This document shows, piece after piece, positions 10,307 through 17,332 of a stretch of 64,000 bases of DNA. Both the position numbers and the translations under genes were made by a program. How positions within the stretch are numbered: position 1 is the first letter of the stretch; every line of letters starts with the position of its first letter. The DNA is from Escherichia phage ZX4221, in sequence record OR498728.1. One strand, 5' to 3'. The notes below the pieces were generated by a model, which had not been told where the DNA came from, did not search any database, and saw only the letters and a list, made by a program, of their open reading frames with translations.

Positions 10307-11722
10307 ATGAGCGAATTATTTAAACATGCGCACCTTCATGCAGGTCGAACTGAAAATGGTGCTGTAAACCATACTTCATCAATGTCTGCTCTGGTAGACT
10401 TCTACAAAGCCGCTGGCTCAAGCCGTAGCAATGTAGAAATCTTACCAGACCTGTTCTACAAAGCTTTGCGTGAGGATGTTGATGTTGCAGTTCGTATTTT
10501 ACTGCATATGCGAGATGTACGAGAAGGTATGGGTGAGCGTAAAGCTTTCCGAACTGTTTTACTTCAAGCGATTGAAGATAAGGTTTTAGAACCTACACAG
10601 GTTCTTCGCATTATGGATAAGATTGCAGAGCTTGGTCGTTTTGATGACTTCAAAATCTTCGTAGGTACTCGTTTTGAGACAGATGCCTTCAAACATTTAG
10701 AAGCAGCATTACTAGACCCTGCAACAGCAGGTTTAGCGGCTAAGTGGTTACCACGAGTAAAACCACGCCACAAACAGTTTGTAAAACGTTTCTGTAAGTT
10801 TGCAAACTTAAGTGAGAAGGAGTATCGCACACTGTTATCTGCACTGTCCGATACGGTTGAGCAAAAAATCTCTGCTAATGAGTTTGGTAAGATTGACTAC
10901 AGCAAGATTCCTTCACTCGCTGCTGCACGTTACCAAAAGCTCTTTAACCGTAAAGATGGTGAACGTTACAAAGCTTATATCGAGTCACTCTCAAAGGGTG
11001 AGGCTAAGATTAACGCTGGTGCTGTTTACCCATACGATGTGATTAAATCTATCAAGTATGGTAATGCAGGTGTTGCTAATGAGCAGTGGAAAGCACTACC
11101 AAACTGGATGGCAGAGGGTGAAAACATCTTGTGTATGACTGATGTTTCAAGCTCAATGTCTTGGGTGAATCTTGGTTCAATCACTGCCCTTGATATTGGC
11201 GTATCACTTGCCTTGTATGTAGCAGAACGCAATACAGGTTGCTTTAAGAATGAGTTAATGGTTTATTCAACAAACCCTCACTTCATCGAACTGAGTGGTG
11301 ATTTGAGAAACCGTCACCGTCAGGTAATGCGTCATGTTGAATATGGTTCAACTAACTTACAAGCAGCTTTTGACCGCATTCTTGAAATAGGTAAGAGAAA
11401 CAACTTGACTCAGAAAGATATGCCAAGTAAGCTTATTATCTTCTCTGATATGGAGTTTAATCAGGTTGATGGTGCAAATGGTCGTACAAACTTTGAAGCA
11501 ATTCAGAGTAAGTACAAAAAAGCTGGATACGAAATGCCACAACTAGTATTCTGGTACTTAGCAAACCGTAATGGTACTTGCGAAGTATCTGTTAAAGATA
11601 ATGGTGTAGCAATGGTATCAGGGTTCTCTCCAGCCACTTTAAAAGCTCTGCTTGGTGGTGAGAAGTTTGACCCAATCAACGTAATGCTCAAAGCAGTAAT
11701 GGTTGACCGTTACATCTGGTAA
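10307..11722 (+). CDS. vWA (MIDAS) domain protein, putatively Ro60/TROVE-like RNA-binding protein
   Basis: 471 aa; C-terminal half has MIDAS-like TDVSSSM ... GSTN ... FSDME; N-terminal TENGAV...ALVDFYKAAGSSR resembles the start of TROVE domains from memory; good RBS; gene is certain, TROVE assignment is inference. Confidence 0.6.
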   Translation: MSELFKHAHLHAGRTENGAVNHTSSMSALVDFYKAAGSSRSNVEILPDLFYKALREDVDVAVRILLHMRDVREGMGERKAFRTVLLQAIEDKVLEPTQVLRIMDKIAELGRFDDFKIFVGTRFETDAFKHLEAALLDPATAGLAAKWLPRVKPRHKQFVKRFCKFANLSEKEYRTLLSALSDTVEQKISANEFGKIDYSKIPSLAAARYQKLFNRKDGERYKAYIESLSKGEAKINAGAVYPYDVIKSIKYGNAGVANEQWKALPNWMAEGENILCMTDVSSSMSWVNLGSITALDIGVSLALYVAERNTGCFKNELMVYSTNPHFIELSGDLRNRHRQVMRHVEYGSTNLQAAFDRILEIGKRNNLTQKDMPSKLIIFSDMEFNQVDGANGRTNFEAIQSKYKKAGYEMPQLVFWYLANRNGTCEVSVKDNGVAMVSGFSPATLKALLGGEKFDPINVMLKAVMVDRYIW

Positions 11723-11730
11723 AAAGTTTA

Positions 11731-11768
11731 AAAAGGGTATTGACAATGTGTTTAATACCCTTTAATAT
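11731..11768 (+). promoter_or_regulatory. Sigma70-like promoter for the tRNA array, embedded in a hairpin
   Basis: TTGACA 11740-45, 17 nt spacer, TAATAT 11763-68; flanked by 9 bp inverted repeat AAAGGGTAT/ATACCCTTT. Confidence 0.55.
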
Positions 11769-11830: not shown

Positions 11831-11860
11831 TTGACAACCACTAAAAAATAATGTTAAAGT
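11831..11860 (+). promoter_or_regulatory. Possible second promoter upstream of first tRNA
   Basis: TTGACA at 11831-36 with weak -10 about 17-18 nt downstream. Confidence 0.3.
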
Positions 11861-11886: not shown

Positions 11887-11963
11887 CTCTGTTTAGCTCA
11901 GCTTGGTAGAGCGTTCCGTTTGGGGCGGTAAGGCCGGAGGTTCAAGTCCTCCAACAGAGACCA
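11887..11963 (+). tRNA. tRNA-Pro (anticodon TGG)
   Basis: Hand-folded: acceptor CTCTGTT/AACAGAG, D-stem GCTC/GAGC, anticodon loop TTTGGGG, T-arm GGAGG-TTCAAGT-CCTCC, CCA encoded. Confidence 0.75.
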
Positions 11964-11970
11964 AATTAAT

Positions 11971-12048
11971 GTTCCAGTAGACAAAACGGTAAAGTCACCA
12001 CTCTTTCAAAGTGGATATTTGAGGGTTCAAATCCCTTCTGGAACGCCA
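11971..12048 (+). tRNA. tRNA-Glu (anticodon TTC)
   Basis: Acceptor GTTCCAG/CTGGAAC, anticodon stem CCACT/AGTGG with loop CTTTCAA, T-loop TTCAAAT, CCA encoded. Confidence 0.7.
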
Positions 12049-12055
12049 GTCTTGA

Positions 12056-12128
12056 CAGAAGACCAATTGCAGCAAACTTAATCTTATTCATCTGACACGA
12101 AATCGGACAAAGAAGAGATTTGGTCTGG
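12056..12128 (+). ncRNA. Stem-closed structured element A (CAGAAGACC ... GGTCTGG family), Y-RNA-like candidate
   Basis: 5' CAGAAGACCAA pairs with 3' TTGGTCTGG (7 bp); conserved 5' box CAGAAGACCnnnTnCAGCAA; inner hairpin AATCT/AGATT; directly follows tRNA-Glu. Confidence 0.4.
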
Positions 12129-12139
12129 TCATTAAGAAT

Positions 12140-12216
12140 TGCGGGTATAGAGAAAGGGCGTCTCACATGTCTCATTAGCATGGTATCGGCAGGTTCGACT
12201 CCTGCACCCGCCTCCA
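12140..12216 (+). tRNA. tRNA-Met (anticodon CAT), copy 1
   Basis: T-arm GCAGG-TTCGACT-CCTGC, acceptor TGCGGGT/ACCCGCC with mismatch at pair 1-72, anticodon loop CTCATTA; CCA encoded. Confidence 0.6.
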
Positions 12217-12222
12217 ATTTTG

Positions 12223-12283
12223 CAGAAGACCGTATTCAGCAACAAACTACTTTTTGCGGATAAAAGAAAAAAACACGGTCTGG
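12223..12283 (+). ncRNA. Stem-closed structured element B (same family)
   Basis: 5' CAGAAGACCGT pairs with 3' ACGGTCTGG (7 bp); same 5' box as element A. Confidence 0.4.
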
Positions 12284-12294
12284 CAATGTATTAA

Positions 12295-12371
12295 GGTTAG
12301 GAAGCACATAAGGTATGTGCGGTCGCCTGTTAAGCGAATGGCACAGGGTTCGAATCCCTGACTAACCGCCA
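12295..12371 (+). tRNA. tRNA-Asn (anticodon GTT)
   Basis: D-stem GCAC/GTGC, anticodon loop CTGTTAA, T-arm CAGGG-TTCGAAT-CCCTG, acceptor GGTTAGG/ACTAACC, CCA encoded. Confidence 0.7.
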
Positions 12372-12380
12372 AATTTAAAT

Positions 12381-12468
12381 GTGTCGTTATCCCGTAGATG
12401 GTAGCGGTGGGGACTGTAAATCCCTTGTCATTGAGACTCGGTAGGTTCGACTCCTACACGGCACACCA
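12381..12468 (+). tRNA. tRNA-Tyr (anticodon GTA), long variable arm
   Basis: 88 nt; acceptor GTGTCGT/ACGGCAC, anticodon stem GGGGA/TCCCT loop CTGTAAA, T-arm GTAGG-TTCGACT-CCTAC, CCA encoded. Confidence 0.7.
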
Positions 12469-12474
12469 AATAAA

Positions 12475-12552
12475 GGTTATGTAGTTTAATCTGGTTAAAA
12501 TACTCCCCTGTCACGGGAGATGATGAGGGTTCAAATCCCTTCGTAACCGCCA
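12475..12552 (+). tRNA. tRNA-Asp (anticodon GTC)
   Basis: Anticodon stem CTCCC/GGGAG perfect, loop CTGTCAC, T-loop TTCAAAT, acceptor GGTTATG/CGTAACC, CCA encoded. Confidence 0.75.
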
Positions 12553-12639
12553 AATTATAATAAGTATTTCAAGATGATGTTTTGAGAGGGCTATTTAGCC
12601 CCTCCCTTAAAGAGTTCTTACGAGTATTCTTTAAAGGAG

Positions 12640-12713
12640 CAGAAGACCAAATGCAGCAAGAATGTATGAAATTTCAAGCCAATTTAATTTTGAAAATTTA
12701 AACTTGGTCTGGC
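12640..12713 (+). ncRNA. Stem-closed structured element C (same family)
   Basis: 5' CAGAAGACCAA ... 3' TTGGTCTGG; inner hairpin AAATTTCAA/TTGAAATTT. Confidence 0.4.
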
Positions 12714-12725
12714 TCAACAAATTTA

Positions 12726-12857
12726 CAGAAGACCGTTTACAGCAAAACTTAAACAATCTATTTCTCCGGTAAAGAAAAGGCGAAGGTTCGATTCCTTCAC
12801 TCGGCAGATGTCGAGTTGGTGTAATGGTAGCACTTAAGATGATAAACAACGGTCTGG
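12726..12857 (+). ncRNA. Stem-closed structured element D enclosing a circularly permuted tRNA-like module; Y-RNA (YrlA-type) candidate
   Basis: Outer 8 bp stem AGACCGTT/AACGGTCT; inside, in order: anticodon-like arm TTTCT-CCGGTAA-AGAAA, T-arm GAAGG-TTCGATT-CCTTC, ACTCGGC-A-GAT-GTCGAGT acceptor hairpin, D-arm GTGT-AATGGTA-GCAC. Confidence 0.5.
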
Positions 12858-12860
12858 TAA

Positions 12861-12999
12861 TTATCTTTGTAGATAAGTTATTAAGCTTCCCTGTGAGTAT
12901 GCGACCACAAAGGTGAAAGGGTAGATTCTAGATTTAACCCGAAAAGACACATCGCTACAGACCTTAAGCAAGTCTGGGTAGCTTATCTACAAAGATAAT
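12861..12999 (+). ncRNA. Structured element bounded by a perfect 17 bp inverted repeat
   Basis: TTATCTTTGTAGATAAG (12861-77) and its exact reverse complement (12983-99) enclose ~105 nt with internal hairpins. Confidence 0.4.
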
Positions 13000-13004
13000 T
13001 TAAT

Positions 13005-13080
13005 GGAAGTGTAGCAGAATGGTGATGCGGCAGACTTTTAATCTGACAGGCGATGGGTTCGAATCCCTCCACTTCTACCA
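13005..13080 (+). tRNA. tRNA-Lys (anticodon TTT)
   Basis: Acceptor GGAAGTG/CACTTCT, anticodon loop CTTTTAA, T-loop TTCGAAT with imperfect T-stem ATGGG/CCCTC, CCA encoded. Confidence 0.6.
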
Positions 13081-13084
13081 ATAT

Positions 13085-13161
13085 GGTTCAGTCGCAGATA
13101 AGGTAATGCAGGGGTTTCATAAGCCCTATGAATGTGGGTTCGATTCCCATCTGAACCTCCA
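13085..13161 (+). tRNA. tRNA-Met (anticodon CAT), copy 2 (initiator, elongator or Ile-lysidine not resolved)
   Basis: Acceptor GGTTCAG/CTGAACC perfect, anticodon stem GGGGT/GCCCT loop TTCATAA, T-arm GTGGG-TTCGATT-CCCAT, CCA encoded. Confidence 0.7.
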
Positions 13162-13162
13162 A

Positions 13163-13238
13163 GCTGGTATAGTTAAGAAGGTTATAACACTCCCCTGATA
13201 AGGGAACATCGGTGGTTCGATTCCACCTACCAGTACCA
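13163..13238 (+). tRNA. tRNA-Ile (anticodon GAT)
   Basis: D-stem GTTA/TAAC, anticodon loop CTGATAA, T-arm GGTGG-TTCGATT-CCACC, acceptor GCTGGTA/TACCAGT, CCA encoded. Confidence 0.7.
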
Positions 13239-13253
13239 ATTCCAATAAAGTTG

Positions 13254-13282
13254 TTGACATTGAGATGTGACCACTTTATAGT
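13254..13282 (+). promoter_or_regulatory. Internal sigma70-like promoter within tRNA array
   Basis: TTGACA 13254-59, 17 nt spacer, TATAGT 13277-82. Confidence 0.55.
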
Positions 13283-13574
13283 AACTAAAATACTTCATAA
13301 TATGTATAATTCAAACACCAATACATGAGTGTTAGACGTAACACAATGTGGGGAAATTTGTTGTACATATTCTGAATAGTTTTCGTTGCGTAGCGTCTAT
13401 TTTGCAAACTTAAAATAAATGCAAACGACAATGTTTTTCTGGCAGTAGCTTGATAGGCTAAACACCAGTGAGGTCTTCCAACCCCTCATCAAAGAATTTG
13501 GCGTACTCGCCCACGGTATGATTAATAAGGTGGGCATCTTTAAGGGCTTTTTAAGAGAGTCTTTAAAGATTAAT

Positions 13575-13651
13575 GCACCCTTAGTTCAACTGGACAGAGC
13601 AAATGACTTCTAATCATTGAGTTACAGGTTCGAATCCTGTAGGGTGTGCCA
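13575..13651 (+). tRNA. tRNA-Arg (anticodon TCT)
   Basis: Anticodon stem AATGA/TCATT perfect, loop CTTCTAA, T-arm ACAGG-TTCGAAT-CCTGT, acceptor GCACCCT/AGGGTGT, CCA encoded. Confidence 0.75.
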
Positions 13652-13793
13652 AATAGTTAGCAGATTGCTTAGACGACCTTATCGGGTCTCCGTGTAAGGA
13701 GGTGGTCTGTATCTCATGTTTTCCAGAACATGTAAATAATCTGAGAAGGGGCTTTACAGTGTTGCGAAAATACGGTAAGCTTCGAATTATAGT

Positions 13794-13876
13794 GTGGGAC
13801 GATGTTAAGACTCTAAGGCATGAGCAACGGCCTCCAAAACCGTTTCAAAGGGGTTCAACTCCTCCGTCCCATGCCA
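13794..13876 (+). tRNA. tRNA-Trp-like (anticodon CCA) with atypical extended D-region
   Basis: Acceptor GTGGGAC/GTCCCAT, anticodon arm ACGGC-CTCCAAA-ACCGT, T-loop TTCAACT, CCA encoded; about 8 extra nt between acceptor and D-stem, so canonical fold not achieved by hand. Confidence 0.4.
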
Positions 13877-13889
13877 AAGTCTTATTAGG

Positions 13890-13977
13890 GGTAGGTAGCG
13901 GCTAATGGTAGCCAAACTGTCTTGAAAACAGTTGCCACTGTAGAGATACGGTGAGGGTTCGACTCCTTTACTTACCG
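13890..13977 (+). tRNA. tRNA-Ser (anticodon TGA), long variable arm, CCA not encoded
   Basis: Acceptor GGTAGGT/ACTTACC, 3 bp D-stem, anticodon stem ACTGT/ACAGT perfect with loop CTTGAAA, ~20 nt variable arm, T-loop TTCGACT. Confidence 0.6.
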
Positions 13978-14235
13978 CCTAATAAGATTTTACACCGTCC
14001 ATGCTTGCTCGCATTTTCGGTTTATCCCTCGTGTATTGTCGTACACACTGATAAAGCACCTAGTAGGTGTCACGGAGAAGAGATAATATCAAGCTCTCCA
14101 AAGGTTCTAGTCACCGGATTGAACAAGACTATGCAAAGACCTAAATAGGTCTTTTTAGAGGGCTTCTAAGGTTATTACAGCTTGTTGTGGAACCTTGTTG
14201 CTTAGGTTCTTAGAAGTTCTCTAAAAAGATTTAAT

Positions 14236-14312
14236 GCACCTATAGCCCAACTGGTAGAGGCAGCAGACTTAGAATCTGCTCAGTGTGAGTTCGAATCTCT
14301 CTAGGTGTACCA
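14236..14312 (+). tRNA. tRNA-Leu-type anticodon TAG, class I (short variable arm) architecture
   Basis: 77 nt; acceptor GCACCTA/TAGGTGT, anticodon stem GCAGA/TCTGC perfect, loop CTTAGAA, 5 nt variable loop, discriminator A, CCA encoded. Confidence 0.6.
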
Positions 14313-14319
14313 AATTAAT

Positions 14320-14395
14320 GCAGGTGTAGCAAAATGGTTATGCGGCTGACTCTTAATCAGTAAGACGATGGGTTCAATTCCCTCCACCTGTACCA
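14320..14395 (+). tRNA. tRNA-Lys (anticodon CTT)
   Basis: Paralog of tRNA-Lys(TTT): acceptor GCAGGTG/CACCTGT, anticodon loop CTCTTAA, T-loop TTCAATT with same imperfect T-stem, CCA encoded. Confidence 0.6.
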
Positions 14396-14401
14396 AACAT
14401 T

Positions 14402-14477
14402 GGGGATGTAGTTTACATGGTTAAAACATAAGTTTTGCAAACTTAAGTACAGGGTTCAATTCCCTGCTTCTCCACCA
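14402..14477 (+). tRNA. tRNA-Ala (anticodon TGC)
   Basis: G3:U70 wobble pair present in acceptor stem; anticodon stem TAAGT/ACTTA perfect, loop TTTGCAA; T-arm CAGGG-TTCAATT-CCCTG; CCA encoded. Confidence 0.75.
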
Positions 14478-14483
14478 ATTAGT

Positions 14484-14558
14484 GCATCCATAGTTTAAAC
14501 GGGAAAATTACAGTCTTCCAAACTGAGGTTGAGGGTTCGATTCCCTCTGGATGCTCCA
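14484..14558 (+). tRNA. tRNA-Gly (anticodon TCC)
   Basis: Acceptor GCATCCA/TGGATGC perfect, anticodon loop CTTCCAA, T-arm GAGGG-TTCGATT-CCCTC, CCA encoded. Confidence 0.75.
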
Positions 14559-14565
14559 AATTAAT

Positions 14566-14641
14566 GCTCCTATCGTATAATTGGCTATTACGGTTGCCTT
14601 GTAAGCAACTTATCAGGGTTCGAATCCTTGTGGGAGCACCA
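14566..14641 (+). tRNA. tRNA-Thr (anticodon TGT)
   Basis: Anticodon stem GTTGC/GCAAC perfect, loop CTTGTAA, T-arm CAGGG-TTCGAAT-CCTTG, acceptor GCTCCTA/TGGGAGC, CCA encoded. Confidence 0.75.
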
Positions 14642-14645
14642 ATTC

Positions 14646-14731
14646 AGAGGTCAAGTGAAAGACCGCTGGTGTCAACTGAAGACCGTAACAAATTCCACGG
14701 AGTTGAGTTAGCGGCACAACTTCAGACCTCT
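14646..14731 (+). ncRNA. Structured element E, divergent relative of the CAGAAGACC family
   Basis: Outer stem AGAGGTC/GACCTCT; contains CTGAAGACCGTAACAAATT resembling the family 5' box; nested stems CCGCT/AGCGG and CTGAAG/CTTCAG. Confidence 0.3.
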
Positions 14732-14736
14732 TTCAT

Positions 14737-14811
14737 ACTCGCTTAGTTTATATGGTAAAACATCACCCTTACAAGATGGAGAAAAAGGTTCAAGTCCTTT
14801 AGTGAGTACCA
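14737..14811 (+). tRNA. tRNA-Val (anticodon TAC)
   Basis: D-stem GTTT/AAAC, anticodon loop CTTACAA, T-arm AAAGG-TTCAAGT-CCTTT, acceptor ACTCGCT/AGTGAGT, CCA encoded. Confidence 0.7.
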
Positions 14812-14812
14812 T

Positions 14813-14890
14813 GTTCCAGTATCCCAATTGGCAGAGGATGCAAGCTCAAACCTTGTACTAGTGACGGTTCGAATCCGTCTTGGAACACCA
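14813..14890 (+). tRNA. tRNA-Leu-type anticodon CAA, class I (short variable arm) architecture
   Basis: 78 nt; acceptor GTTCCAG/TTGGAAC, anticodon stem GCAAG/CTTGT, loop CTCAAAC, ~6 nt variable loop, T-arm GACGG-TTCGAAT-CCGTC, discriminator A, CCA encoded. Confidence 0.55.
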
Positions 14891-14895
14891 ATTTT

Positions 14896-14971
14896 GCAGG
14901 ATTAGTTCAAATGGATAGAGCAACAGTCTACGAAGCTGTTAATAGGGGTTCGAATCCCTTATCCTGCGCCA
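14896..14971 (+). tRNA. tRNA-Arg (anticodon ACG)
   Basis: Acceptor GCAGGAT/ATCCTGC perfect, D-stem GTTC/GAGC, anticodon loop CTACGAA, T-loop TTCGAAT, CCA encoded. Confidence 0.75.
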
Positions 14972-14989
14972 GATAAGTAAGAGGAATTT

Positions 14990-15232
14990 ATGCAAACATT
15001 AATCGTCGTTGAACATGAAAATTCCAATAGTATTGAGTTTGTAAGGGTTCCCACTATAGATACCCACATTTTCTTGAAAGTCGGATGGGGATGTGACCCA
15101 ATAAAAGTAGAAAATTTTATTGGTCATTACTTTGGTGGAAGACAACTTAAAAGCGTCAATTTTGAGACAATGTTACCAGAAAACTCAGAAACAAATAATA
15201 ATGTTTATCTCCTTACGAGGATTAGACAATGA
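14990..15232 (+). CDS. hypothetical protein inside tRNA array (80 aa)
   Basis: AAGAGGA Shine-Dalgarno 6 nt before ATG; stop overlaps next start (ATGA). Confidence 0.45.
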   Translation: MQTLIVVEHENSNSIEFVRVPTIDTHIFLKVGWGCDPIKVENFIGHYFGGRQLKSVNFETMLPENSETNNNVYLLTRIRQ

Positions 15233-15786
15233 GATATCTGAAGTATGCTTCATGGATTTTCCTAGCTTTGTTAGACCCATTGGCAGCAACCTTAGCAGTT
15301 ATCTTAGCACCCTTTGTAGTCCCATTCTACAGTGAGAAGAAAGGCCATCTACCTTTTGGATTCAGATGGATGGAGACATATGACAACCCGATTGATGGCG
15401 ATGAAGGTCATATGAAACGATGGGCTAAGATTAGAAAGATTGGTAAGCTCGGTGTCTATATGCAGAGAGTTGGCTGGCTCTGGAGAAACAAAGCTTATAA
15501 CTTCTCTTACCATGTGTTAGGAAGAGATGTAAAAGATGTTACTAAGTGGAAAGGTAATATCAACGTGAGTTCTGACCCTGAAGATAATCAGACAGGTTAT
15601 CTCCTAATGTGGAACAGTAATGCTTGGGGATTATTTGCTTTTATCCCATCAATTAAAATCTTTGGTAAACAATTCTACTGGAGAATTTATGTTGGATGGA
15701 AACTTAAAAGTGTTGTCCCAGAAGAAAGAGCATTCTCAAGGGAAAGAGTTATGTTGGCATTCTTTATTCATCCACTGAGAAAGTAA
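15229..15786 (+). CDS. hypothetical protein with hydrophobic N-terminus inside tRNA array (185 aa)
   Basis: ORF-track ORF; translationally coupled to 14990..15232; N-terminal WIFLALLDPLAATLAVILAPFVVPF looks membrane-associated. Confidence 0.5.
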   Translation: MRYLKYASWIFLALLDPLAATLAVILAPFVVPFYSEKKGHLPFGFRWMETYDNPIDGDEGHMKRWAKIRKIGKLGVYMQRVGWLWRNKAYNFSYHVLGRDVKDVTKWKGNINVSSDPEDNQTGYLLMWNSNAWGLFAFIPSIKIFGKQFYWRIYVGWKLKSVVPEERAFSRERVMLAFFIHPLRK

Positions 15787-15794
15787 AGATTTAA

Positions 15795-15870
15795 AGGGGA
15801 TTAGTTTACAAGGTTAAAACCTCGGTCTTTGAAATCGAAGAAGTTGGTTCAATTCCAACATCCCCCGCCA
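15795..15870 (+). tRNA. tRNA-Gln (anticodon TTG)
   Basis: Anticodon stem TCGGT/ATCGA, loop CTTTGAA, T-arm GTTGG-TTCAATT-CCAAC, A1-C72 mismatch at top of acceptor, discriminator G, CCA encoded. Confidence 0.65.
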
Positions 15871-15872
15871 AT

Positions 15873-15951
15873 GCTCCATTACTCCAATTGGCAGAGAGGC
15901 CAGACTTAAAATCTGTGTTATGTATCGGTTCGAATCCGATATGGAGTACCA
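15873..15951 (+). tRNA. tRNA-Leu-type anticodon TAA, class I (short variable arm) architecture
   Basis: 79 nt; acceptor GCTCCAT/ATGGAGT, anticodon stem CAGA/TCTG, loop CTTAAAA, ~7 nt variable loop, T-arm ATCGG-TTCGAAT-CCGAT perfect, discriminator A, CCA encoded. Confidence 0.55.
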
Positions 15952-15956
15952 AATTT

Positions 15957-16032
15957 AGCGGTATAGCATAACTGGCAATGCAGCAGTCTCTGAAGCTGTC
16001 TTATTAAGGTTCAAATCCTTATGCCGCTGCCA
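15957..16032 (+). tRNA. tRNA-Gln (anticodon CTG)
   Basis: Acceptor AGCGGTA/TGCCGCT, D-stem GCAT/ATGC, anticodon loop CTCTGAA, T-arm TAAGG-TTCAAAT-CCTTA, discriminator G, CCA encoded. Confidence 0.65.
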
Positions 16033-16063
16033 CTTCTAAGGGTTCTTACGAGAGTCCTTAAAT

Positions 16064-16139
16064 GTGGCCTTATCATAAATGGTAATGACCCATGCTGTGA
16101 ACATGGTCTATACGGGTTCAAATCCCGTAGGTCACCCCA
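16064..16139 (+). tRNA. tRNA-His (anticodon GTG)
   Basis: Anticodon stem CCATG/CATGG perfect, loop CTGTGAA, D-stem TCAT/ATGA, T-arm ACGGG-TTCAAAT-CCCGT, discriminator C; no encoded G-1 (preceding base is T). Confidence 0.7.
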
Positions 16140-16145
16140 ATTTAT

Positions 16146-16221
16146 AGTCCAAGTAGCTTATATGGTTAAAGCGCGTGTCTGAAAAACATGAGAAGAGGGT
16201 TCAAATCCCACTGGACTACCA
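16146..16221 (+). tRNA. tRNA-Phe (anticodon GAA), irregular acceptor/linker geometry
   Basis: Anticodon stem CGTGT/ACATG, loop CTGAAAA, D-stem GCTT/AAGC, T-loop TTCAAAT; acceptor pairs only as 6 bp or with a 4 nt linker to the D-stem; boundaries uncertain. Confidence 0.55.
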
Positions 16222-16237
16222 ATTTCAAAGGTGCTTA

Positions 16238-16972
16238 ATGAAAGAGATGACAGAACAAGGTAAGGAGATTTTTAATCTCTTAAAAACCGGTAGAGGGTTT
16301 TCTAATCCCCTTATTACTGGTGCAGCAGTTCTCGGTGGAACCGTAGCTGCCTCTACATCACTTGTAAGCTCTATTAGCTCTGTAACAGACCCTACAATAA
16401 AGGATAAGCTTATTGCTGCTGGACTTACAACAGTTCTGCTTAACAGCTTTACAACGAGTCTGACAAGCACTACATCAACCACTAAGACACTGACAGATTA
16501 TGGTCAAAAGTCCATTGATGAGTTTTCATCACGTATGCAGGTAGCAAAAGGATATTCCAATGTTATGGGTGCAGCAGGAGAACAAGTCGGTTGTACACCA
16601 TTTAGTGGTATTATGGGTGTTGCTACAGAATATGGTCAAAAAGCTATTGACACAATTAACAGTGCACTAGATGGTGTTAATGATGTGTTAAGTGACTTAC
16701 AAGATGCTATTGATGAAGGTCTTGATACTATTTCTGATTTAGCTAACCAAGCTGTTAGCAAGATTAATGAAGGTATCTCGAAGATTACAGCTTATGCAGA
16801 TGAAGTTGTGCAGATGATTGAAGAAGAAGCTGCCCTTATTGCAGAGTACCTTAAAACGAATATCAATGGGTTCTTAGCAGGTATCTTACCAGACTGGTTT
16901 GATGATGCTTGTAAAACTGGTGTAATTGATACTATTGCAACACCAGAAATGAAGAACGCATTACAGAAATAA
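16238..16972 (+). CDS. hypothetical Ser/Thr-rich protein (244 aa)
   Basis: ORF-track ORF trimmed to first ATG with RBS (AAAGG) that does not overlap tRNA-Phe. Confidence 0.5.
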   Translation: MKEMTEQGKEIFNLLKTGRGFSNPLITGAAVLGGTVAASTSLVSSISSVTDPTIKDKLIAAGLTTVLLNSFTTSLTSTTSTTKTLTDYGQKSIDEFSSRMQVAKGYSNVMGAAGEQVGCTPFSGIMGVATEYGQKAIDTINSALDGVNDVLSDLQDAIDEGLDTISDLANQAVSKINEGISKITAYADEVVQMIEEEAALIAEYLKTNINGFLAGILPDWFDDACKTGVIDTIATPEMKNALQK

Positions 16973-16973
16973 T

Positions 16974-17066
16974 GGAAGATTAACCCTAAAAGGTAAGGGA
17001 GCAGTTTGCTAAACTGCCAGTAGCTGAGAAATCGGTGTACCAGTTCAAGTCTGGTATCTTCCTCCA
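16974..17066 (+). tRNA. tRNA-Ser (anticodon GCT), long variable arm
   Basis: 93 nt; acceptor GGAAGAT/ATCTTCC perfect, anticodon stem GCAGT/ACTGC perfect, loop TTGCTAA, T-arm ACCAG-TTCAAGT-CTGGT, CCA encoded. Confidence 0.75.
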
Positions 17067-17070
17067 ATTT

Positions 17071-17146
17071 GAATCCGTGACAGAAATGGCTATGTGCCTG
17101 TCTGCAAAACAGGTTTATAAGGGTTCGAGTCCCTTCGGATTCTCCA
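17071..17146 (+). tRNA. tRNA-Cys (anticodon GCA)
   Basis: Acceptor GAATCCG/CGGATTC perfect, anticodon stem CCTGT/ACAGG perfect, loop CTGCAAA, T-arm AAGGG-TTCGAGT-CCCTT, CCA encoded. Confidence 0.75.
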
Positions 17147-17308: not shown

Positions 17309-17332
17309 GACGGTCTCTGTACCGTCTTTTTT
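17309..17332 (+). terminator. Rho-independent terminator
   Basis: GACGGT-CTCTGT-ACCGTC hairpin followed by TTTTTT. Confidence 0.7.

What the first reader, a model, noticed from the sequence alone, without database searches (positions are those of the whole stretch)
11887..17146. tRNA array covering all 20 amino-acid specificities, with isoacceptor pairs
27 candidate tRNAs were folded by hand: Pro, Glu, Met x2, Asn, Tyr, Asp, Lys x2 (TTT and CTT), Ile, Arg x2, Trp-like, Ser x2, Leu x3, Ala (with G3:U70), Gly, Thr, Val, Gln x2, His, Phe, Cys. Most encode CCA. A full set suggests heavy translational autonomy. Several show oddities: the two Lys genes share an imperfect T-stem, tRNA-Phe has a 6 bp acceptor or a 4 nt linker, and tRNA-His lacks an encoded G-1.
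Basis: seen in the sequence. Interest (0 to 1): 0.4.

Follow-up and report, generated by a model that had tools for sequence, protein, structure and literature searches.

The report
Phage tRNA array with hidden RNAs
This is the already-described tRNA gene cluster of a Felix O1-like phage, but it also holds an unannotated, oddly built tryptophan tRNA and four small RNAs that look like partners of the Ro60-like protein encoded just upstream.

Summary
The window is a Felixounavirus, 97% identical to Escherichia phage pEP20.

The array itself is known: Felix O1 was reported with 22 tRNAs, and Sf14 with 26 tRNAs for 19 amino acids. The 27th gene, "Trp-like" at 13794-13876, is rejected by both callers and is unannotated in 235 phage records. 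Across Ounavirinae it nevertheless keeps a cloverleaf through compensatory changes in 7 of 21 pairs. It has a CCA anticodon, G73, a CCA end, and an invariant 9-nt connector where tRNAs normally have 2 nt.

"Translational autonomy" is overstated. Codon matching is modest, and published knockouts found these tRNAs mostly dispensable.

Between the tRNAs lie four paralogous small RNAs (12053-12860). Each has a 6-bp stem, then UU, then NCAGCAA, and ends in UG. One carries a circularly permuted tRNA-like domain. They lie just downstream of a gene whose predicted fold is Ro60.

In 75 distant viral contigs encoding this protein, the signature occurs 60 times on the gene's strand and 2 times on the other. 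Its best Rfam match is the Dictyostelium Class I RNA family, always below threshold.

The parts
10307..11722 (+). Ro60-like protein gene (471 aa; Pfam DUF2828 + DUF7788, weak VWA_2), immediately upstream of the array
   Evidence: Pfam. AF2 model with pLDDT 87.7. The top 11 PDB matches are all Ro60/TROVE, E 3e-8 to 9e-6, TM 0.5-0.65. tblastn finds mycobacteriophage 'Ro-like RNA binding protein'.
11740..11768 (+). sigma-70-like promoter TTGACA-17-TAATAT
   Evidence: 10 of 12 matches. Consensus match only.
11831..11860 (+). sigma-70-like promoter TTGACA-18-TAAAGT with TG, 27 nt before tRNA-Pro
11887..11963 (+). tRNA-Pro (UGG)
11971..12048 (+). tRNA-Glu (UUC)
12053..12131 (+). Y1: Class-I-like small RNA. 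Outer helix UGAC/GUCA; core 12061-12127 is GACCAA-UU-GCAGCAA...UUGGUC-UG.
   Evidence: (repeat family D7)
12140..12216 (+). tRNA-Met 1 (CAU). 1:72 is always a mismatch, G2:C71 and C3:G70 are present, and position 37 is U.
   Evidence: Rfam 28.5 bits.
12220..12286 (+). Y2: Class-I-like small RNA (core 12228-12282)
   Evidence: Rfam RF01414 22.9 bits.
12295..12371 (+). tRNA-Asn (GUU)
12381..12468 (+). tRNA-Tyr (GUA), class II
12475..12552 (+). tRNA-Asp (GUC)
12637..12715 (+). Y3: Class-I-like small RNA (core 12645-12711)
12723..12860 (+). Y4: long form. It has the same terminal stem and motif, enclosing a circularly permuted tRNA-like domain: V arm, T arm 12782-12798, closed acceptor stem 12799-12816, D arm 12819-12833.
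   Evidence: MFE fold. Alignment A5 is 96% paired against 42-50% when slid, with 3 of 7 closed-acceptor pairs compensatory.
12859..13000 (+). structured RNA closed by a 22-26 bp stem, directly before tRNA-Lys
   Evidence: I1; z -4.96, 0 of 200 shuffles fold as well.
13005..13080 (+). tRNA-Lys (UUU), weak T stem
13085..13161 (+). tRNA-Met 2 (CAU)
13163..13238 (+). tRNA-Ile (GAU)
13254..13282 (+). best sigma-70-like promoter in the region, TTGACA-17-TATAGT
   Evidence: 11 of 12 matches
13575..13651 (+). tRNA-Arg (UCU)
13794..13876 (+). non-canonical tRNA-Trp-like gene: anticodon CCA, G73, CCA end, and a 9-nt connector GAUGUUAAG between the acceptor and D stems
13890..13979 (+). tRNA-Ser (UGA), class II. 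It ends CCU, and its leader and trailer pair (13876-13889 with 13978-13991).
   Evidence: (I6)
14236..14312 (+). tRNA-Leu (UAG), 77 nt, no long variable arm
14320..14395 (+). tRNA-Lys (CUU), weak T stem
14402..14477 (+). tRNA-Ala (UGC), G3:U70
14484..14558 (+). tRNA-Gly (UCC)
14566..14641 (+). tRNA-Thr (UGU)
14737..14811 (+). tRNA-Val (UAC)
14813..14890 (+). tRNA-Leu (CAA), 78 nt
14896..14971 (+). tRNA-Arg (ACG)
14990..15786 (+). two embedded ORFs: 80 aa with no family, and 185 aa DUF7338
15795..15870 (+). tRNA-Gln (UUG), A1.C72
15873..15951 (+). tRNA-Leu (UAA), 79 nt
15957..16032 (+). tRNA-Gln (CUG)
16064..16139 (+). tRNA-His (GUG), T at -1, C73
16146..16221 (+). tRNA-Phe (GAA), 6-bp acceptor stem
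16238..16972 (+). embedded ORF, 244 aa, DUF7217
16974..17066 (+). tRNA-Ser (GCU), class II
17071..17146 (+). tRNA-Cys (GCA)
17309..17332 (+). terminator-like hairpin plus T run after the array

Best explanation
The region is the tRNA cluster of a Felixounavirus.

Transcription and processing (inferred). It is probably transcribed rightward by host RNA polymerase from sigma-70-type promoters at about 11740, 11831 and 13254. A terminator-like hairpin sits near 17309. Host tRNA-processing enzymes probably cut the transcripts into individual RNAs.

The tRNAs (shown). There are 26 standard-shaped tRNAs, mostly with U at the wobble position. They match the A-ending codons that the AT-rich phage uses far more than its host. 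They therefore top up, or replace, the host tRNA pool during infection. They do not make translation autonomous.

The 27th gene (structure shown, function inferred). It is a real, selected RNA: a tRNA-Trp-like cloverleaf with an invariant 9-nt insertion between the acceptor and D stems. I think it is most likely a working or specialised tRNA-Trp.

The interleaved small RNAs (family and gene association shown, binding inferred). Four small RNAs, Y1-Y4, lie between the tRNAs and are probably released by the same tRNA processing. They share a 6-bp stem, a single-stranded UU-NCAGCAA motif and a UG end. Y4 adds a circularly permuted tRNA-like domain, which is the architecture of bacterial YrlA Y RNAs.

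They sit just downstream of a gene for a Ro60-fold protein. I propose they are its Y-RNA-like ligands, forming an RNP that acts on RNA during infection. A preprint reports that the orthologous protein of the related phage Bas63 counters the Ppl defence system.
For: Identity of the phage and prior knowledge of the array.

tRNA calls.

Codon match: AGA is used 10x more in the phage than in E. coli, ACA 3.7x, TCA 3.3x, CTA 3.1x, CCA 2.3x, TTA 2.1x. All have Watson-Crick phage tRNAs.

Trp-like gene:
- It is present in 235 phage records and almost never annotated.
- On 10 Ounavirinae sequences, including Pectobacterium phages, 85% of cells pair, against 24-49% when partners are slid.
- 7 of 21 pairs carry compensatory changes, against 0 in the slid controls, and 0 of 500 shuffles reach the covariation score.
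- The connector GAUGUUAAG is invariant.

Y1-Y4:
- Four paralogues are found in the window (family D7).
- The outer and inner helices covary among paralogues and orthologues.
- The Y4 fold is supported by alignment.
- They are absent from Arno18 and Wc4-1, which also lack the protein gene.

Protein fold: Ro60.

Generality of the RNA-gene link:
- The strict signature gives 53 hits against 2.5 expected in the annotated phage loci.
- In 75 IMG/VR contigs with 39-47% protein identity it gives 60 hits on the gene's strand in 40 loci. The opposite strand gives 2, and shuffles give 0.3.
- 48 of the 60 lie within about 460 nt of the gene.
- In those loci, 99 tRNAs lie on the gene's strand and 0 on the other.

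YrlA link: the Rfam YrlA model hits the long-form elements of FBKp34 and mycobacteriophage MsGreen at 39 bits, E about 2e-5.

Literature: the Bas63 orthologue was reported as Ro60-like and as a counter to Ppl. Those authors only guessed that some 'tRNAs' might be Y RNAs.
Against: - No expression, processing, charging or binding data exist for any of these RNAs here. Promoters and terminators are consensus matches only, and the region holds no more of them than shuffled sequence.
- The Trp-like RNA fails both tRNA callers. It has three conserved non-standard pairs (10.25, 31.39, 49.65), so it may not fit TrpRS, EF-Tu or the ribosome.
- Y4 is not detected by Rfam YrlA even at E <= 10. The YrlA and Y RNA 'CGAA' motif is absent.
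- The Y elements could be cis-acting sites on the mRNA rather than free RNAs.
- Only 40 of 75 distant loci show the strict signature.
- The tRNAs were mostly dispensable in laboratory hosts.
Confidence: 0.7

Rival explanations
1. It is only an ordinary codon-compensating tRNA array. The repeats between the genes are processing signals, spacer hairpins or decayed mobile-element remnants with no partner protein. The Trp-like sequence is a decaying pseudogene.
For: The array is typical of this genus and codon matching is visible. Homing-endonuclease genes are inserted in the array in relatives. Callers reject the Trp-like gene.
Against: A pseudogene would not keep 7 compensatory pair changes and an invariant 9-nt insert from Escherichia phages to Pectobacterium phages. 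The repeat signature follows the Ro60-like gene in unrelated phages that have no tRNA array nearby, 60 to 2 by strand. It is missing from the Ounavirinae that lack the gene.
Confidence: 0.12
2. The main role of the tRNAs is counter-defence. They replace host tRNAs that are cut or depleted by anticodon nucleases and similar systems, and their odd features (U37 in Met1, altered anticodon loops, odd stems) let them escape those nucleases. This can coexist with the best explanation.
For: The tRNAs are mostly non-essential on laboratory strains and were proposed to be conditionally useful. In Sf14, 12 tRNAs differ from host tRNAs in the anticodon loop. One tRNA per amino acid, rather than only rare-codon tRNAs, fits replacement better than fine tuning. 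The neighbouring protein is reported to counter a defence system.
Against: There is no direct test here. Codon enrichment for the cognate codons is real. Several of the oddities would be expected to weaken normal function, such as His without G-1 and Phe with a 6-bp acceptor stem.
Confidence: 0.4
3. The stem plus UUNCAGCAA elements are cis-regulatory sites, for example autoregulatory binding sites or mRNA-stability elements of the Ro60-like gene's transcript. They would not be free small RNAs.
For: In many distant contigs a single copy sits 14-430 nt upstream of the gene, or just downstream, on the same strand. In KVP40 the motif lies about 25 nt before the start codon.
Against: - Tandem arrays of up to 7 copies occur.
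- In this window the copies lie between tRNA genes, 330-1100 nt after the gene's stop.
- Long forms carry tRNA-like domains.
- The size and ends match free Dictyostelium small RNAs.
Confidence: 0.15
4. The likeness of Y1-Y4 to Dictyostelium Class I RNAs is chance or convergence, not common descent or a shared protein partner.
For: All phage scores are below the Rfam gathering score: at most 29.6 bits against 41.5. The spacer between stem and CAGCAA is one nt shorter in phages. The published direct binder in Dictyostelium is an RRM protein, not a Ro60-like one. I could not show that Dictyostelium encodes a DUF2828 protein.
Against: Out of 4227 families, RF01414 is the top non-tRNA hit in three independent phage loci: 7 tandem hits in LAh_6, and the only hits at all in A511. 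The stem length, motif position, the invariant U, C and CAA positions, the AAG start, the CUGU end and the length of about 58 nt all agree.
Confidence: 0.4

Closest known systems
tRNA clusters of Felix O1-like phages (Felix O1, Whichard 2010, PMC3185647; Shigella phage Sf14, Ross and Doore 2025, PMC12482277)
   Same: Same genes in the same order, at 82-97% DNA identity. Same codon-usage reasoning. Many of the tRNAs are already known to score oddly in isotype models.
   Different: Those papers list 22 tRNAs, or 26 tRNAs for 19 amino acids. Neither reports a Trp gene or the small RNAs between the tRNAs.
Bacterial and phage Y RNAs of the YrlA type with Ro60/Rsr (Chen 2014, PMC4201824; Thermus phage phiLo Ro60 with Yrl1/2, PMC12135203)
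   Same: A Ro60-fold protein gene sits next to several small RNAs on the same strand. One RNA has a stem joining its ends plus V, T, closed-acceptor and D arms in that order.
   Different: The protein belongs to Pfam DUF2828/DUF7788, not TROVE. The RNA motif is UUNCAGCAA, not GNCGAA(N)G or CGAA. Rfam YrlA does not detect Y4. The RNAs are embedded in a tRNA array.
Dictyostelium Class I RNAs (Rfam RF01414; Kjellin 2021, PMC7919456)
   Same: A 6-bp terminal stem starting with G. Directly after it lies an unpaired motif ending in CAGCAA, with the same invariant positions. They start AAG, end CUG(U), have a variable interior, are about 42-65 nt long, and have many paralogues.
   Different: Phage scores are below the gathering score. 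The spacer is one nt shorter. There is no DUSE promoter. The phage family also has long forms with tRNA-like inserts. Class I RNAs were reported to be unique to Dictyostelia.
T4 tRNA cluster with its two stable non-tRNA RNAs, and T4 tRNAs lacking encoded CCA (from my own knowledge, not checked here)
   Same: A phage tRNA operon that also yields small stable RNAs. At least one tRNA (Ser) needs host 3'-end repair.
   Different: The T4 small RNAs have no known Ro60-like partner. I did not compare sequences.

Membership tests
tRNA (Rfam RF00005 / ARAGORN) | Cloverleaf scoring above the caller's threshold | tested here: met
   26 of 27 by ARAGORN. 24 pass the Rfam gathering score. Met1 scores 28.5 against 29.
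tRNA (the Trp-like gene 13794-13876) | Detected by automated callers | tested here: not met
   No call at default or -ps90, and a wrong fold at -ps80. Best Rfam score 23 bits.
tRNA (the Trp-like gene 13794-13876) | Four-arm cloverleaf maintained by evolution, with anticodon, discriminator base and CCA end | tested here: met
   7 of 21 pairs compensatory, 85% paired against 24-49% when slid. CCA anticodon, G73 and a CCA end in all 10 sequences.
tRNA (the Trp-like gene 13794-13876) | Two-nucleotide connector (positions 8-9) between the acceptor and D stems | tested here: not met
   The connector is 9 nt (GAUGUUAAG), or 11 nt in Pectobacterium phages, and its sequence is invariant.
tRNA (the Trp-like gene 13794-13876) | Aminoacylation and use in translation | not testable with these tools
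   Needs charging assays or tRNA sequencing.
Bacterial tRNA-Leu (class II) | Long variable arm | tested here: not met
   The three Leu genes are 77-79 nt with 4-7 nt variable loops, in all relatives but one. Published isotype models still score them best as Leu.
Bacterial tRNA-His | Genome-encoded G-1 opposite C73 | tested here: not met
   T at -1 in 11 of 11 loci; C73 is present.
Ro60 / TROVE proteins (ORF 10307-11722) | HEAT-repeat ring plus vWA domain fold | tested here: met
   AF2 pLDDT 87.7. The top 11 Foldseek PDB matches are all Ro60/TROVE over the full length.
Ro60 / TROVE proteins (ORF 10307-11722) | Sequence match to the TROVE family or to solved Ro60 proteins | tested here: not met
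   Pfam gives DUF2828 + DUF7788 only. phmmer against PDB sequences finds nothing at E <= 1.
Ro60 / TROVE proteins (ORF 10307-11722) | Binds Y RNAs | not testable with these tools
   Genomic association only.
YrlA Y RNA (Rfam RF02553), for Y4 | Score above the gathering score of 69 bits | tested here: not met
   No hit at E <= 10 on Y4. Counterparts in FBKp34 and MsGreen reach 39 bits.
YrlA Y RNA, for Y4 | End-joining stem plus V, T, closed-acceptor and D arms, encoded beside a Ro60 homologue on the same strand | tested here: met
.
YrlA Y RNA, for Y4 | GNCGAA(N)G motif near the 5' end | tested here: not met
   The 5' region reads CAGAAGACCGUUUACAGCAA.
Dictyostelium Class I RNA (Rfam RF01414), for Y1-Y4 | Score above the gathering score of 41.5 bits | tested here: not met
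   Y2 scores 22.9 and Y4 12.8; Y1 and Y3 are not listed. The best phage element scores 29.6.
Dictyostelium Class I RNA, for Y1-Y4 | Short stem joining the ends, conserved motif directly after its 5' strand, AAG start and CUG(U) end | tested here: met
   The spacer is one nt shorter than in Dictyostelium.
Dictyostelium Class I RNA, for Y1-Y4 | DUSE promoter about 60 nt upstream; expression as a free RNA of about 60 nt | not tested
   DUSE is a eukaryotic promoter element and does not apply. Expression is not testable here.

The most novel reading that the evidence does not exclude
The four repeats are phage members of the same RNA family as the Dictyostelium Class I RNAs, and this family is the RNA ligand of DUF2828-type Ro60-like proteins. 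That would make 'Class I RNAs' a second kind of Y RNA shared by phages and eukaryotes. It would also make the protein plus RNA module, sometimes fused to tRNA-like bodies, a widespread phage RNP that works alongside phage tRNA arrays, perhaps in defence evasion.
Probability: 0.35. Interest if true: 0.85.

Novelty: new variant of a known kind. Interest (0 to 1): 0.55.

Why it matters
The tRNA array as such adds nothing new. Two things inside it would matter if confirmed.

1. The Trp-like gene. Hundreds of sequenced Felix O1-like phages, several of them used for biocontrol and typing, carry an unannotated Trp-type tRNA. It has a conserved 9-nt insert at a position where tRNAs are nearly invariant. 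That is a natural test case for what TrpRS, RNase P, EF-Tu and the ribosome will tolerate. It would also change the count from 19 to 20 amino acids.

2. The small RNAs. The Ro60-like protein of these phages was recently tied to escape from the Ppl defence system, but no RNA partner is known. The four RNAs give concrete candidates with a defined motif that can be mutated.

If the match to the Dictyostelium Class I RNAs is real, it gives a testable protein partner for a 20-year-old orphan RNA class that was thought to be unique to social amoebae.

Tried and rejected
- **Relaxed ARAGORN thresholds** for the Trp-like gene gave only an implausible 88-nt fold plus many false calls. I replaced this with comparative analysis.
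- **Sequence search of the protein against PDB chains** found nothing. The fold search was needed.
- **A first, permissive stem-plus-motif detector** was non-specific, giving dozens of hits in E. coli and on both strands. I replaced it with a strict signature and shuffle controls.
- **Rfam YrlA on Y4** gave no hit.
- **Weak Rfam hits** were treated as chance: tmRNA at 13385-13574 (16.9 bits), permuted tmRNA, Plastid-ycf2 antisense to tRNAs, and microRNA families.
- **The promoter and terminator scan** is not enriched over shuffles. Only the three best + strand sites in the gaps are cited, as inference.
- **Whether Dictyostelium encodes a DUF2828 protein** could not be settled. The afdb50 library was unavailable. 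Literature searches for DUF2828, PF11443, UCP015417, TROVE plus Dictyostelium, and DDB_G0281243 were uninformative. Avesson 2011 and Aspegren 2004 are not held. The Chen 2014 supplements are not held.
- **Whether one CAU tRNA is a lysidine-type Ile2** I considered unlikely and did not follow up. ATA is rare in the phage at 2.3 per 1000, and published isotype scores for Ile2 are low.
- **A search for the bare motif in the literature** returned only unrelated siRNA sequences.

Full report
**What the window is.** The 5.6 kb around the finding is 94-97% identical over its full length to more than 200 phage genomes of the genus Felixounavirus. The best match is Escherichia phage pEP20. In annotated relatives the same stretch carries the same run of tRNA genes. 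It lies between a gene annotated as a 'DUF2828 family / RNA-binding protein' and the large terminase gene.

**Checking the observation.**
- Rfam's tRNA model passes its gathering score for 24. Met at 12140 misses by half a bit, 28.5 against 29. The long-armed Tyr is captured by the tRNA-Sec model.
- The drawn structures and a comparison of 11 related loci confirm each oddity:
  - Both Lys genes have a T stem with only three G:C pairs.
  - Phe has six acceptor pairs and a 3-nt linker. Suspvirus preserves this with a completely different stem sequence.
  - His has T, not G, at -1 in every relative, with C73.
  - Ala has G3:U70.
  - All genes but Ser(UGA) encode CCA.

**The 27th gene.**
- Neither caller accepts the 'Trp-like' sequence at 13794-13876. 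It is unannotated in nearly all of the 235 phage records that contain it. The literature says these phages cover 19 amino acids, and Felix O1 was reported with 22 tRNAs and no Trp.
- I aligned ten copies from four groups of Ounavirinae, including two Pectobacterium phages at 77% identity.
- The alignment reveals an ordinary cloverleaf once a 9-nt stretch (GAUGUUAAG; 11 nt in the Pectobacterium phages) is allowed between the acceptor stem and the D stem. tRNAs normally have two nucleotides there.
- On this structure 85% of cells pair, against 24-49% when partners are slid. Seven of 21 pairs show changes on both sides, spread over all four stems, against none in the slid controls. No shuffle reaches the covariation score.
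- The anticodon CCA, discriminator G73 and the CCA end are invariant, and so is the insert. Three non-standard pairs (10.25, 31.39, 49.65) are also conserved.
- It is therefore a selected, structured, Trp-type RNA and not a decaying pseudogene. Whether it is charged is unknown.

**What the array is for.**
- From 63 long ORFs of the window and 52 annotated E. coli K-12 genes, the phage uses A-ending codons far more than the host: AGA 10-fold, ACA 3.7, TCA 3.3, CTA 3.1, CCA 2.3, TTA 2.1.
- The phage tRNAs, mostly with U34, are the Watson-Crick readers of just these codons. Cognate codons have a mean log2 phage/host ratio of +0.36, against -0.50 for the rest (p = 0.024).
- This agrees with the published view. 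It is a modest effect, however. Simple wobble leaves 24% of phage codon usage uncovered.
- A transposon-type knockout study of the related phage Bas63 found the tRNAs mostly non-essential. 'Translational autonomy' is too strong. Supplementing or replacing the host tRNA pool is the better description, and a counter-defence role remains open.
- Strong sigma-70-like sites lie in the gaps at 11740, 11831 and 13254, and a terminator-like hairpin at 17309. These are consensus matches only.

- All three Leu genes are 77-79 nt, without the long variable arm of bacterial tRNA-Leu. Published isotype models still rank them as Leu.
- Met1 never pairs 1:72 (T, C or A opposite C). It has G2:C71 and C3:G70, and U at position 37.
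- Ser(UGA) ends in CCU, and its leader and trailer pair over 9 or more bp.

**The small RNAs between the tRNAs.**
- A direct-repeat family of four copies (D7) marks hairpins at 12053-12131, 12220-12286, 12637-12715 and 12723-12860.
- Each has an outer 4-bp helix that differs between copies but stays complementary: UGAC/GUCA, UUGC/GCAA, GAGC/GCUC, UUAC/GUAA.
- Inside that is an inner 6-7-bp helix GACCnn/nnGGUC, followed on the 5' side by UU-NCAGCAA and on the 3' side by UG.
- The fourth copy folds into a circularly permuted cloverleaf: a variable arm, a perfect T arm (GAAGG-UUCGAUU-CCUUC), an acceptor stem closed by a loop, and a D arm.
- Across nine relatives that fold is 96% paired, against 42-50% when slid. 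The closed acceptor stem exists in three different complementary versions.
- This is the layout described for bacterial YrlA Y RNAs.

**The neighbouring protein.**
- The 471-aa ORF at 10307-11722 matches only DUF2828 and DUF7788 in Pfam and no solved protein by sequence.
- A confident AlphaFold model (pLDDT 87.7) has Ro60/TROVE proteins as its eleven best PDB matches over the full length. These include the frog, Deinococcus and Thermus-phage proteins.
- tblastn links it to 'Ro-like RNA binding proteins' of mycobacteriophages and to homologues in about 700 phage records.
- A 2024 preprint reached the same structural conclusion for the Bas63 orthologue and showed that it counters the Ppl defence system. 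It only speculated that some annotated tRNAs might be Y RNAs.

**Is the RNA tied to the protein?**
- The two Pectobacterium Ounavirinae that lack the gene also lack the repeats.
- A strict signature was defined as: a 6-bp stem starting with G, two nucleotides, NCAGCA(A/T), and a 3' strand followed by UG. It gives 53 hits against 2.5 expected in the loci I had fetched.
- Outside the Ounavirinae, the true hits lie beside the gene in a Klebsiella phage (FBKp34), an Aeromonas phage (LAh_6, six copies), a Campylobacter phage and Listeria phage A511.
- As a larger test I fetched viral contigs encoding relatives of the protein and scanned the 75 with only 39-47% identity:
  - 60 hits on the gene's strand, in 40 loci.
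  - 2 hits on the other strand, and 0.3 expected from shuffles.
  - 48 hits within about 460 nt of the gene, and only one inside it.
  - 56 of 60 are preceded by AA or UA. The median short form is 58 nt.
- Long forms in FBKp34 and mycobacteriophage MsGreen are hit by Rfam's YrlA model at 39 bits, below threshold but with E about 2e-5.
- In three phages the hairpin-plus-motif is instead inserted into the anticodon-arm region of an otherwise normal-order tRNA-like RNA.
- The association is therefore shown. Binding is inferred.

**An unexpected resemblance.**
- When small pieces are searched against all 4227 Rfam families, the best non-tRNA match of these elements is the Class I RNA family of Dictyostelium (RF01414):
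  - Seven tandem full-length hits in LAh_6, at 19-29.6 bits. E-values, already multiplied by the number of families, go down to 0.003.
  - The only two hits of the whole search in A511.
  - Y2 in this window, at 22.9 bits.
- All are below the gathering score of 41.5, so I do not file them as members.
- The defining features given for Class I RNAs are nevertheless all present in the phage elements:
  - a 6-bp stem joining the ends,
  - an unpaired motif CCUUACAGCAA directly after its 5' strand, with U3, C6, C9, A10 and A11 invariant,
  - an AAG start and a CUGU end,
  - a length of about 60 nt, a variable interior and many paralogues.
- The one difference is a spacer one nucleotide shorter.
- Class I RNAs were reported as unique to Dictyostelia. 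One of the four proteins pulled down with them, DDB_G0281243, has no known function.
- Pfam family PF11443 (DUF2828), from my recollection of its description, is found in eukaryotes and viruses. The Aeh1 annotation notes similarity to an Arabidopsis protein.
- I could not test whether Dictyostelium has such a protein. The link therefore remains a hypothesis.

**Verdict.**
- The tRNA array is already known, and the 'autonomy' reading is overstated.
- Two points are new here, as far as the literature I could search shows. The first is evolutionary evidence for a non-canonical Trp-type tRNA gene. The second is the identification of four Y-RNA-like small RNAs, tied to the adjacent Ro60-like gene, whose signature recurs next to that gene family across very different phages.

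Noticed in passing
window 12859-13000: A 142-nt RNA closed by a near-perfect 22-26 bp stem (z -4.96; no shuffle folds as well). It lies between Y4 and tRNA-Lys. A duplex this long could be an RNase III site.
   Followed up: partly
window 12605-12635, 13536-13570, 14146-14233, 16033-16062: A/U-rich hairpins built on CUUUAAAGA/UCUUUAAAG-like arms sit just before runs of tRNAs. Two share the loop GUUCUUACGAG. The 14100-14235 piece has z -4.06 and the 13440-13574 piece z -3.12. They may be processing signals.
   Followed up: no
window 13876-13991: The leader and trailer of tRNA-Ser(UGA) pair (AAAGUCUUAUUAGG with CCUAAUAAGAUUUU). This extends the acceptor helix by about 9 bp with G73 bulged, and the gene ends in CCU instead of CCA. 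CHB7 carries a different Ser(UGA) allele with CCA.
   Followed up: partly
window 12140-12216: tRNA-Met 1 has an initiator-like acceptor end: 1:72 is never paired, and G2:C71, C3:G70 and a purine11:pyrimidine24 pair are present. It lacks the three G:C pairs of initiator anticodon stems and has U at position 37.
   Followed up: partly
window 14236-14312; L002 4045-4122, L004 7095-7172, L006 7666-7743: Felixounaviruses carry one of two unrelated versions of tRNA-Leu(UAG) at the same site, GCACCUAUAGCCC... or GGGAGAUUGACGG.... Both are class I in length. The first version resembles the phage's tRNA-Arg(UCU) acceptor stem and also occurs in Klebsiella phage FBKp34. This suggests cassette-like replacement.
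   Followed up: partly
L008 8003-8116; L014 1494-1610; L016 7184-7305: Three distant phages have 114-122 nt tRNA-like genes with normal acceptor, D and T arms. A hairpin followed by UUUACAGCA (UUUACCGCA in Aeh1) is inserted at or in place of the anticodon arm. Two are annotated as tRNA-Asp and tRNA-Val.
   Followed up: partly
window 14642-14736: A structured 95-nt spacer (z -2.86) contains GAAGACCGUAACAAAU, which looks like a decayed copy of the Y-element 5' end.
   Followed up: no
relatives: L007 6257-6661, L006 7096-7437, and hits H7, H8, H12, H16: HNH homing endonuclease genes and a PD-(D/E)XK gene are inserted at different points of the array in different relatives. In SUSP1 one replaces the Trp-like gene region. 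The array is a hot spot for mobile genes.
   Followed up: no
window 14990-15786 and 16238-16972: Three protein ORFs sit inside the array and are conserved in relatives: an 80-aa orphan, DUF7338 and DUF7217. Arno18 and Wc4-1 keep an ORF of similar length (about 240 aa) just before tRNA-Ser(GCU), but I did not test its family.
   Followed up: no
supplement of PMC7919456: Among 'outgroup candidates' that the authors discarded, an Arabidopsis sequence (ath_can_1, UGUUUUCAUUACAGCAAUC...GAAAACUG, model score 40) has the same stem, motif and UG-end signature. A Capsaspora sequence has the stem and the motif but ends in UC rather than UG. Plants encode DUF2828 proteins.
   Followed up: no
L025-L099: In 23 of 75 distant viral contigs the Ro60-like gene has tRNA genes within 3 kb. 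All 99 of those tRNAs are on the gene's strand. The link between this protein and phage tRNA arrays therefore extends beyond Felix O1-like phages.
   Followed up: partly
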